Source: Chrysomallon squamiferum (Eukaryota; Animalia; Mollusca). From it: a stretch of 64,000 bases of DNA. The first letter of the stretch is position 1. Each line of letters begins with the position of its first letter. A model generated the notes under the pieces. The model was not told the DNA's origin. It did no database searches and saw nothing but the letters and a program-made list of their open reading frames with translations. Positions 11,101 to 14,100 of this stretch are shown piece after piece. The stretch is from positions 3,472,001-3,536,000 of the forward strand of contig CM022666.1 of NCBI GenBank assembly GCA_012295275.1, given 5' to 3'. The translations under genes were made by a program, and so were the position numbers.

Positions 11101-14100
11101 TTATAGTTCAATTACTAATAATAACAACAAGAACAACAACAATAATAGCAGTAAAAATAATAATATTAATAATAATAATAATAATATTACTACTTTTATA
11201 TTTTAATATTAATTTTTTTTACTATTTTTACTGTTTTAATATTAAATTTTATTTTATTAACAATAACTGTATTTCAACAGACTGTCAATATTTCTTCTAC
11301 AATAAAATATAGTATAAACTGTAATACAGAATACTTTTGTTTAAAGTTAAAACTTAAATGTGTCATACTTCAATCCAGCATATATTTAGTTGTTAAGGAT
11401 TGACAATACAATTTTAATGGGATATGACAAATCTTTTGACAGAGGTATGTTATACATGCAATTAAACAGTCAAACAATTATGTAAATGTGTCACATTTTT
11501 ATTCAAAGCAGCTAAAAAAACTTGAAAGATATAAATTTGATTGCAAAACTAACAAAATAAATAAATAATCTTTATCAAAAATTTATAAATTCAAAGATGC
11601 TGCAAAAGTGAAACAAAAATCGAAACAAAGCGAAAACAAAACAAAACAAACCTTGTGGATCAAATTCTTTAGCAAGCAAGAGAGCCATATCTTTCAACCA
11701 AAGTGAAAACCCATACACAAGATGTCTCTTGCCTGTTAACATGCCAAATAAAACCACAGTGGTAAGTTTAGACACAAATCATGCACCCACAAAGACACAA
11801 AAAAATAAAAACAAAAATTTAAAACAAAGTTTTCTCATACAGATGTCACCTGTTATCAACACTGAAGAAGGCAAATGAAGCAGATATTTTGCCAGTCTTA
11901 AAAGATGTATTCAGCTTTGATGTAACTGATTTTTGATAATAGAAATAAGATAAAATGTGCAGATTTTTTTTGTGTGTGTGTGTGTGTGTGTGTGTCCTTG
12001 TATGGGTGCTTTTGTACATGGAAGAGACAAGTATGAATGTATTGGTAAAAGATAATAATTATTTTTATAAAATGTTTTTCGGTGTTGTTGTTTTGATGGG
12101 GTTTTGATGTTGTTTATTTTTTTATTTTTTAATAATTTATCTGTTTGTTTATTTACACATTTATTTATTTTTATTATATATAATTTAAAATGATTTCAAA
12201 TGAATTAAAAGAAGCATATACACCTTTTAGGACTGGCAAAAAAAATAATTTAGTCAGCAAACACAGCAAAATTATTTTAAAAACATTTGTTTTAAGCAAT
12301 TCTAATTACCAAAACAGTGAGTCTATGAACTGCAATATACAAAACTGAAACCAAAGACAATAATCTCTGAAAGTTAAAAAAAAGAAATGATGTCACAGAA
12401 TAAGGTCCAGAATGCTTTTTGACAGCAGAAATTAAGACATCTTTACTTTATTAATTAGTGTAAGAATAATTTGTTTACAGTTATATATTTAAATACAATT
12501 TGACTTGAATACTGAAGTATTCAAAATAATAAAAGAAAATGTGAAAATTCTGCTCAACCTTGATAAAAATGATGCACAAACTTTACATTCATTAATTTGG
12601 TTTTTTAAATTGATAGAATTAATTGCATAAAAATGAAGAAGTAGAGCATATGTACACCAAATTCTGTGACATCCATTAAAAGAAATAAAAAAAATAAATG
12701 TTTAAATTAAATGCATTAAGCAACTCTGAATTCAGCCAGGCAAATTCAGACATTTAGAGCGGAATTAACAGCAGCAACACCATGTTAACTAAAAGCTGGT
12801 TAGTTACAATGTAAACTGAAAGCTGATTGGCCACCAACATGTAAACTGAAAGCCTATTGGCTGCAGCTGAATACCTTGTGGCTTAAATTCTTTATTTACA
12901 ATTTGAGCCATTTCTTTCATCCACATATTAACATTAGTAATGAGATGACGCTTTCCTGAAATAACACTAAACTTTAAAATATATAAATAAATACAGCATG
13001 TACAGCCTAAGAAGCTGCCCAGAATATGTTTAGTTATTTAATTTCTGAAATATTTAGAAATTTATATATTATATATAATTATTTTTGCAGTGCATATATT
13101 ACTATTACTGTCAGTTAGTCAGTCAGTCAGTCAGTCAGTCAGTCTCTCTCTCTCTCTCTCTCTCTCTCTCTCTCTCTCTCTCTCTCTCTCTCTCTCTCTC
13201 TCTCTCTCTCTCTCTCTCTCTCTCTCTCTCTCTCTCTCTCTCTCTCTCTCTCTCTCTCTCTCTCTCTCTCTCTCTCTCTCTCTCTCTCTCTCTCTCTCTC
13301 TCTCTCTCTCTCTCTCTCTCTCTCTCTCTCTCTCTCTCTCTCTCTCTCTCTCTCTCTCTCTCTATACACATTTCTACATCTATATAAATGATACAGATTT
13401 CATTTTCAAATATATTTGTAATTGCAAGATTGATGTACACTTAAGATGAACAAAATGTTAAAACTTAAAATTAACAAATGTGCCTAAAATGACCGAAGAC
13501 CACTGTTGAAAAGAAAACAATTAGATTTAAAATTCTATATAAAAACATACACATTTTTTATCCAAATAAAACTTTTACTACTGGCTTTCATTGAGAAAAA
13601 AAAAACCCACAGAAATATGAGAAAGAATTTCTCACACACATGTACAAAATTGGAAATTATAAATTTTTCTTTCTCTCTTTCATATACTGAATAAAATTAA
13701 TTATAAAGACTTGAGCTTTTCGCTTTTAAGAATTATCTTCTTTCTTTCTTTCTTTCTTTATTTTATTTTTAATTTATTTATTTGATTTTCTTTTTGCATC
13801 CTGAATAAAATTAATTACAAAGATTTTTCTTTTTTTTTTAAATTATTTTCTATTATTTACCTGCAGCTTGAGGTGTGATCATAGCTTTGATGTGGGCATC
13901 AGCTACATCTCTGACATCGATTATTGGGAAGTTCAGTTTGGGCAATGCTGGCATTGACCTTTCCAACAGTCGCTTCATCACCTTTAGATATACAGTATGT
14001 GATCATAAATGTACATCCATGTGTATCTGTGTGTGTATATGTCTGCTAGTATGCATGTATATATGTGTTGATGTGTGTGTGTAATTGTGTGTGTGTGAAT

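What the first reader, a model, noticed from the sequence alone, without database searches (positions are those of the whole stretch)
11887..12874. Competing RNA base-pairing elements between the two alternative exons (docking/selector-like switch)
Seen: 11887-11910 (TTTTGCCAGTCTTAAAAGATGTAT) and 12218-12241 (ATACACCTTTTAGGACTGGCAAAA) are inverted repeats. In the minus-strand pre-mRNA they form 23 of 24 pairs, including one G-U. The overlapping segment 11907-11916 reads AGCUGAAUAC in the transcript, exactly complementary to the first 10 nt of the exon 7a donor (GUAUUCAGCU, 12874-12865). One intronic element ~155 nt upstream of the 7b acceptor could therefore either mask the 7a 5' splice site or be sequestered in the long stem. 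Established: competing pairings control mutually exclusive splicing in Dscam1 and 14-3-3zeta. Inference: this is the switch for 7a/7b choice.
Basis: partly seen in the sequence, partly recalled or inferred. Interest (0 to 1): 0.72.

Follow-up and report, generated by a model that had tools for sequence, protein, structure and literature searches.

The report
Rival RNA folds between swappable exons
A mollusc reductase gene carries an ancient either-or exon pair, and the intron between the two exons holds a 24-base inverted repeat that is predicted to fold first and hold off a second, overlooked element that would otherwise cover the start of the second exon, a likely but untested splicing switch.

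Summary
The sequences are as described: 23 of 24 RNA pairs (1 of 500 shuffles as good) and an exact 10-nt match to the 7a donor (about 0.5% of shuffles; 6% over four splice sites). Exons 7a/7b (81 nt each) are a real exon pair in an extended-SDR reductase gene. Isoform pairs differing only there are annotated in three abalones, two limpets and a chiton. The repeat is single-copy, not a MITE. The stem's real predicted competitor was missed: a 66-nt element inside its loop (12055-11990), antisense to the 7b flank, acceptor and exon (-51.9 kcal/mol; 1 of 176 shuffles; -21.2 against 7a). The stem is predicted to form first during transcription, the 7b-masking fold to win at equilibrium. RNA contigs show mostly 6-7b-8. 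Against function: one individual has two non-compensatory stem changes, the predicted opening cost of the acceptor is equal in both folds, and cross-species conservation could not be tested. Earlier scan notes describe loosely similar cases in other genomes. Interest 0.45.

The parts
13861..13981 (-). exon 6 (constitutive, upstream)
   Evidence: GT-AG ends; spliced to 7b in RNA contig of X6 (table 7)
12875..12955 (-). exon 7a, 81 nt, the conserved (ancestral-type) variant
   Evidence: exon 6-7a junction inferred from a 56-nt contig in X7
12865..12874 (-). D: 7a donor +1..+10; the only donor of the gene's first nine introns lacking both +4A and +5G among those starting GTA
12782..12861 (-). three imperfect 23-nt repeats just downstream of the 7a donor; role unknown
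   Evidence: family D12
12661..12673 (-). E: 5' arm of a perfect 13-bp long-range helix
   Evidence: p about 1.0; alone reached by 10-14% of shuffles
12389..12401 (-). F: 3' arm of the 13-bp helix
12218..12241 (-). B: 5' arm of the 24-bp stem
   Evidence: -31.5 kcal/mol; variant at 12224 in X5, 1-nt deletion at 12238 in X2
11990..12055 (-). C: element inside the stem's loop, antisense in four co-linear blocks to the 7b upstream flank, acceptor and first half of 7b (new)
11911..11929 (-). local 6-bp hairpin predicted to cover 6 of the 10 nt of S
11907..11916 (-). S: 10-nt exact complement of the 7a donor
11887..11910 (-). A: 3' arm of the 24-bp stem
   Evidence: variant at 11906 in X5
11783..11799 (-). 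C-prime: partner of C at -67..-51 of the 7b acceptor (17 bp, -27.5 kcal/mol); overlaps a UGCAUG at 11785-11780
11762..11766 (-). candidate branch point CUUAC of 7b, within a 99-nt AG-free zone
   Evidence: sequence
11652..11732 (-). exon 7b, 81 nt, the divergent variant; 11730-11688 pairs with C
10765..10886 (-). exon 8 (constitutive, downstream)
   Evidence: joint 7b-8 in X6, X8, X7; open frame of 442 aa

Best explanation
The 24-bp inverted repeat between exons 7a and 7b is likely an anti-silencer helix: it is predicted to fold first in the nascent RNA and to trap in its loop a 66-nt element that would otherwise pair over the upstream flank, acceptor and first half of exon 7b, so that the rival folds would set how often 7b rather than 7a is used. 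Shown: the exon pair, the complementarities, their crossing order (B < C < A < C-prime, so they cannot nest), and spliced 6-7b-8 RNA. Predicted: stem first, 7b-masking fold later and more stable. Inferred: masking lowers 7b use and lets the weak-donor exon 7a be chosen; elongation rate or helicases would tune the ratio. Not explained: what stops 7a and 7b being joined when the stem is formed; the weak 7a donor, perhaps helped a little by the 10-nt match, is my guess.
For: C pairs with the 7b region at -51.9 kcal/mol, matched by 1 of 176 local shuffles scored on their best window and 0 of 1000 shuffles of C itself; it is the best acceptor-region duplex among the gene's 10 acceptors (next -43.5) and gives only -21.2 against 7a. 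The stem is matched by 1 of 500 shuffles. The two folds lie within 3.2 kcal/mol in the 1331-nt context and 1.3-8.6 in shorter ones once 7b is included. Stem probability is 0.95-1.0 while the transcript ends before exon 7b and falls to 0-0.09 after it. Opening C-prime costs 4.8 with the stem and 20.2 in the rival fold; the 5' half of 7b 17.2 against 23.4. 7b is the spliced form seen in 3 of 4 RNA-type runs, which fits a kinetically held stem. No variant was listed in 12005-12055 or in C-prime in the runs covering them, while nearby places vary (variant tables may be incomplete). Both-included and both-skipped forms stay in frame (469 and 415 aa) and the AG-free zone is only 99 nt, so decay and distant-branch-point mechanisms are unavailable.
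Against: No cross-species intron could be fetched; the second organism laid only on 7a, none on the arms, S or 7b. Run X5 of the same organism has two non-compensatory changes in the stem that weaken it from -31.5 to -23.2 kcal/mol and shift the balance by about 7. Opening the 7b acceptor itself costs the same in both folds (10.3 vs 9.7; branch point to AG 16.1 vs 16.6) because a local hairpin covers it. With a coarse 40-nt step, C ranked only 5th of 1589 minus-strand windows of the 64 kb, and a plus-strand window reached -56.6. After masking microsatellites 21 compact duplexes of -24 or better occur on the minus strand of the window and 4 of 110 windows hold two. Part of the C/C-prime helix borrows from a CA microsatellite. 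All elements were picked after looking. 7b dominance is equally explained by a weak 7a donor, and contigs do not measure levels.
Confidence: 0.4

Rival explanations
1. The repeats are neutral by-products (local inverted duplications by template switching, or decayed element remains); exon choice is set by splice-site strength and proteins.
For: Non-compensatory stem variants in X5; of four stem mismatches and variants two give G-U on the transcript strand and two on the other strand, so no strand bias; 4 other clean inverted repeats in the 64 kb; C aligns as a deleted inverted copy of the 7b region; equal acceptor accessibility in both folds. An earlier scan note reached this kind of verdict for an intronic repeat in another genome (unchecked).
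Against: Three to four complementarities with shuffle frequencies of 0.002, 0.006, 0.005-0.06 and 0.1 fall in one 1142-nt intron between alternative exons, two of them on splice-site regions, and two cross with near-equal energy.
Confidence: 0.35
2. One reading: S either masks the 7a donor or is held in the 24-bp stem, and this toggle picks 7a or 7b.
For: Exact 10-nt match covering the GU, rare in shuffles, abutting the stem arm; hairpin masking of a 5' splice site is known (MAPT exon 10, passage in PMC11802352).
Against: 4-nt overlap only; pairing probability 0.00; nested form 17 kcal/mol above ground; freeing S and D costs 13.8 or 8.9 against a duplex of -13.0 before any loop penalty; the donor is made about 950 nt before S; no account of how 7b is skipped. 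ViennaRNA cannot score the pseudoknotted form, so coaxial stacking is not excluded.
Confidence: 0.1
3. RNA structure does control the choice but through other or additional helices (for example exon 6 with 11930-11919, 12813-12802 with the exon 8 start, or E-F shortening the intron), the stem being only one module as in ATE1.
For: Such 10-13 bp helices exist; the ATE1 discussion reports over 50 further paired regions (PMC7797038).
Against: Each is at chance-level strength among 1700 helices of 9 bp or more listed for the 3.2 kb.
Confidence: 0.1
4. C is an editing-complementary sequence that lets ADAR recode exon 7b, and the stem limits editing.
For: An intronic antisense copy of an exon is the usual layout for recoding (recalled).
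Against: RNA contigs across 7b show 0 other letters in X6, X8 and X7 (contigs drop rare variants); the exon helices are 7-13 bp.
Confidence: 0.05

Closest known systems
Human ATE1 exons 7a/7b, R1R3/R3R4 competing pairings (PMC7797038; abstract, first third of Results and Discussion read)
   Same: Two tandem-duplicated exons; an element in the intervening intron pairs with the region just upstream of the second exon and is reported to hide its 3' splice site; crossing helices; co-transcriptional folding affects the ratio.
   Different: In ATE1 one element pairs with similar sites before both exons. Here C pairs only with 7b (-51.9 vs -21.2), extends into the exon, and its rival is a purely intronic stem that encloses C. 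ATE1 is conserved and mutationally proven; this is neither.
Docking-site/selector structures of Dscam1, 14-3-3zeta, Mhc, MRP1 (PMC6071210; abstract, introduction and start of methods read)
   Same: Competing long-range intronic pairings at mutually exclusive exons born by tandem duplication.
OGDH exons 4a/4b, distant branch points (PMC7969005; abstract and outline only)
   Same: Two-exon mutually exclusive pair in a metabolic enzyme.
   Different: Needs a branch point near the upstream donor; here the intron is 1142 nt and the AG-free zone 99 nt.
coq-2 exons 6a/6e (PMC7434440; passages)
   Same: Mutually exclusive exons that swap part of an enzyme in helminths, annelids and molluscs.
   Different: Different enzyme; its passages give no RNA-structure mechanism; no substrate switch is shown here.
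Extended short-chain dehydrogenase/reductases: plant DFR/CCR, yeast GRE2, Aplysia reductase-related protein
   Same: The abalone orthologue matches DFR/CCR structures at E 1e-43; Pfam PF01370 on homologues; Aplysia protein is a homologue.
   Different: Substrate unknown; KE-rich tail; exon 7 swap not seen in the Aplysia pair.

Membership tests
Tandem-duplicated mutually exclusive exons | Two adjacent homologous exons of equal length and phase | tested here: met
   81 nt each, 13 of 26 residues identical
Tandem-duplicated mutually exclusive exons | Each exon used alone in transcripts | tested here: inconclusive
   This organism: 7b-8 joint in 3 of 4 RNA-type runs, 6-7a inferred in 1, no 7a-8, 7a-7b or 6-8 joint listed (contigs drop rare forms). 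Relatives: 6 of 10 named-species pairs differ only in exon 7; one Patella caerulea model includes both.
Docking-site/selector switch (Dscam1, 14-3-3zeta) | One docking site complementary to a selector for each exon | tested here: not met
Docking-site/selector switch (Dscam1, 14-3-3zeta) | Pairing loops out the unchosen exon | tested here: not met
   B-A, D-S and E-F all lie within the 7a-7b intron
Docking-site/selector switch (Dscam1, 14-3-3zeta) | Conservation or compensatory change across species | not testable with these tools
   No genome held; metagenome scan gave 7 loci, none with a tandem exon pair; second organism did not lay on the elements (weak)
ATE1-type 3' splice-site masking | Intervening-intron element complementary to the region upstream of the second exon | tested here: met
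   C with C-prime, acceptor and 7b; 1 of 176 shuffles; prediction only
ATE1-type 3' splice-site masking | Same element also pairs upstream of the first exon | tested here: not met
   -21.2 kcal/mol, equal to the local mean of -21.1 for that region
ATE1-type 3' splice-site masking | Disruptive and compensatory mutations change and restore splicing | not testable with these tools
   needs minigenes
MITE | Terminal inverted repeats | tested here: met
   24-bp arms around 307 nt
MITE | Multiple genomic copies | tested here: not met
   One contig's depth over 11753-11914 in DNA runs X5 (48.1, at 80% likeness) and X2 (110.6); unbroken contigs across both arms; no second copy in the window. Copies sharing only the 24-nt arm would be missed.
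MITE | Target-site duplication | tested here: not met
   Flanks printed show no direct repeat at the arm ends (read by eye)
Steric or spliceosome-incompatibility exclusion | Branch point near the upstream donor, or U12-type donors on both exons | tested here: not met
   1142-nt intron, last upstream AG at 11835-11834; 7b donor GTTTGT is not U12-like (consensus recalled)
NMD-enforced exclusion | Double inclusion or skipping shifts the frame | tested here: not met
   469 and 415 aa open frames

The most novel reading that the evidence does not exclude
An attenuator-like kinetic splicing switch in a mollusc: a stem that forms first traps an antisense silencer of exon 7b, while a 10-nt strand stacked on that stem covers the 7a donor, so that one fold opens 7b and closes 7a and the other closes 7b, with elongation rate or temperature choosing between two enzyme isoforms kept since the chiton-gastropod split.
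Probability: 0.15. Interest if true: 0.75.

Novelty: new variant of a known kind. Interest (0 to 1): 0.45.

Why it matters
RNA-structure control of mutually exclusive exons is documented in insects and in human ATE1; my searches listed no mollusc case. The exon pair itself appears old (chiton, limpets, abalones) and swaps 27 residues of an unstudied reductase. If the silencer/anti-silencer layout works, it would add a layout without a shared docking site, in a compact 1.1-kb intron that is easy to test, with a natural stem-weakening haplotype that predicts an allele-specific shift towards 7a.

Tried and rejected
No whole genome is held, so genome-wide copy counts were replaced by contig depth. 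The metagenome scan with exon-7a peptides gave 374 pattern hits and 7 loci: 3 intron-containing distant homologues with one exon 7 each and 4 intronless ones; no intron comparison was possible. Organism B (run X10) laid at about 85% on 7a only; absence on the arms is weak because short matches may not lay. The stretch laid was 10700-13100, so exon 6 junctions were seen only as loose ends or contig geometry. Rfam gave two chance microRNA hits outside the intron; no tRNA. A 26-residue tree did not resolve whether b-type exons share one origin (the chiton was not in it). Earlier notes near this place: none. The first isoform build had a wrong exon 8 start, corrected; one search reused the old file, which affects only residues after exon 7. 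Folding cannot model pseudoknots or proteins. Rejected: MITE, NMD, distant branch point, U12 incompatibility, docking/selector layout.

Full report
The gene. The finding lies in a minus-strand gene of at least ten exons from 17937 to about 8100. Exon 2 finds extended short-chain reductases, the best identity being abalone at 85% (110 proteins among 196 candidates). Outside exon 7 the protein is 78% identical to abalone, 72-74% to limpets and caenogastropods and 69% to oyster, so the organism is a mollusc, probably a gastropod. The abalone orthologue matches DFR/CCR structures. Exons 7a (12955-12875) and 7b (11732-11652) are 81 nt each with GT-AG ends and 13 of 26 residues identical.

The exon pair is real and old. 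Of ten named-species isoform pairs compared, six differ only within exon 7: Haliotis cracherodii, asinina and rufescens, Patella caerulea and vulgata and the chiton Liolophura sinensis. Lineus, Mytilus californianus, Aplysia and Owenia differ elsewhere. One P. caerulea model includes both exons, a before b as here; whether that is a transcript or a prediction I cannot tell. 7a is the conserved type (16-21 of 26 identical to other a-types); b-types are 9-15 of 26 alike between genera and the tree is unresolved, so one origin is likely but not shown. In this organism, RNA-type contigs join 7b to exon 8 in X6, X8 and X7; X9 is too thin. X6 also shows exon 6 letters ahead of 7b. X7 has two 56-nt contigs whose length and placing fit junctions 6-7a and 6-7b; their exon-6 letters were not printed, so 6-7a is inferred. 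No 7a-8, 7a-7b or 6-8 joint was listed; contigs drop rare forms. Double inclusion and double skipping stay in frame and the AG-free zone before 7b is 99 nt (sequence), so decay and steric mechanisms do not enforce exclusion.

The observation. The arms give 23 of 24 RNA pairs and the 10-nt element S is the exact complement of the 7a donor D. The stem score was reached in 1 of 500 shuffles of either kind; the donor match in about 0.5% of 3000 shuffles, or 6% of 2000 when four splice sites are allowed. The repeat is one of 5 clean inverted repeats in the window after 2871 of 2876 hits were filtered. It is not a MITE by the tests available: single-contig depth and unbroken contigs across the arms in DNA runs X5 and X2, no second copy in the window, no target-site duplication by eye.

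S overlaps arm A by 4 nt; its other 6 nt are predicted in a local hairpin. D-S has probability 0.00 in the 1331-nt ensemble at 37 and 15 C. Forcing it costs 17 kcal/mol; freeing S and D costs 13.8 with the stem formed and 8.9 in the rival fold, against a duplex of -13.0 before loop closure. Neither pairing encloses an exon, unlike the docking/selector layout described in PMC6071210 (introduction read). The pseudoknotted form, with D-S stacked on a 20-bp stem, cannot be scored by these programs and remains possible.

A helix search and folding show that 12055-11990, element C inside the stem's loop, is antisense in four co-linear blocks to 11799-11783 (C-prime), the 7b acceptor and 11730-11688 of the exon, skipping the branch-point and pyrimidine tract. 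The duplex is -51.9 kcal/mol; 1 of 176 local shuffles did as well on its best window; it is the best of the gene's 10 acceptor regions and gives -21.2 against 7a. Against this, at a coarse step C ranked 5th of 1589 windows and one plus-strand window scored better, and compact duplexes of -24 or better are not rare in the window (21 on the minus strand). B-A and C-7b cross. They differ by 3.2 kcal/mol in the full context. As the transcript grows, B-A has probability 0.95-1.0 until C-prime is complete, 0.3-0.9 at 11720 and 0-0.09 once half of 7b is out. A perfect 13-bp helix E-F (12673-12661 with 12401-12389) is compatible with both folds but is matched by 10-14% of shuffles.

Mechanism, with status. 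Shown: sequences, crossing order, 7b splicing. Predicted: stem first, C-7b later and more stable; C-prime and the 5' half of 7b are much easier to open with the stem (4.8 vs 20.2; 17.2 vs 23.4). Inferred: the stem keeps 7b usable, refolding silences it and lets the weak-donor 7a be chosen. C-prime overlaps a UGCAUG, the RBFOX motif by recall; two such motifs in 3.2 kb are not remarkable. Unexplained: what prevents 7a-7b joining in the stem state.

Evidence against function. Run X5 has changes at 11906 and 12224 that do not compensate, weaken the stem to -23.2 and make C-7b win as soon as C-prime appears; the outer 11 bp are unchanged in X5, and X2 differs only by one base in the terminal A-run. 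The acceptor itself is predicted equally hard to open in both folds. Conservation, the usual test, could not be run.

Comparison and novelty. It would work like the R3R4 half of human ATE1, where an intervening-intron element hides the second exon's 3' splice site and folding kinetics shift the ratio (PMC7797038), but it lacks the matching site before the first exon and has an enclosing stem instead. It is not a member of the docking/selector family. Four paper searches (listings, open-access library only) showed no mollusc case of structure-controlled exon choice and nothing on this exon pair; a fifth found the Aplysia homologue only as a transcript tested in learning studies (PMC4259342, passages). 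PMC8042237 (passages) added nothing. No supplements were read. Verdict: a real ancient exon pair with a credible but unproven structural switch, different from the one proposed; interest 0.45.

Noticed in passing
window 12782-12861: Three imperfect 23-nt repeats directly after the 7a donor, each with a CAG/UUUCAG-like core; one shares 8 nt of complementarity with S.
   Followed up: partly
window 10884-10995: 13-nt minisatellite abutting the exon 8 acceptor; length and letters vary between runs X5, X2 and X6.
   Followed up: partly
window 13909-13898 with 11930-11919; 12813-12802 with 10887-10876; 11790-11781 with 10880-10871: Further 10-12 bp complementarities linking exon 6 or the start of exon 8 to the 7a-7b intron; chance-level strength.
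   Followed up: partly
window 9584-9294 and 8207-about 8135 (minus): Last exons encode a long KE-rich low-complexity tail, present also in mollusc homologues.
   Followed up: partly
window 18653-19969 (minus): 438-codon intronless open frame just upstream of the gene; by eye it looks like a seven-transmembrane receptor; not tested.
   Followed up: no
window 39701-40157: Strongest inverted repeats of the window (58-bp and 34-bp arms about 165 nt apart); probably a repeat element.
   Followed up: no
window about 57371-59535 (plus): Long open frames; a stretch printed reads like a non-LTR reverse-transcriptase motif (recalled); not tested.
   Followed up: no
P0120 (Patella caerulea KAK6195723.1): Annotated model with both exon 7 variants in tandem, 467 aa.
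   Followed up: partly
window 12870-12968, run X10: A second organism has a 7a-like exon at about 85% identity with unalignable flanks and no 7b match at 80%.
   Followed up: partly
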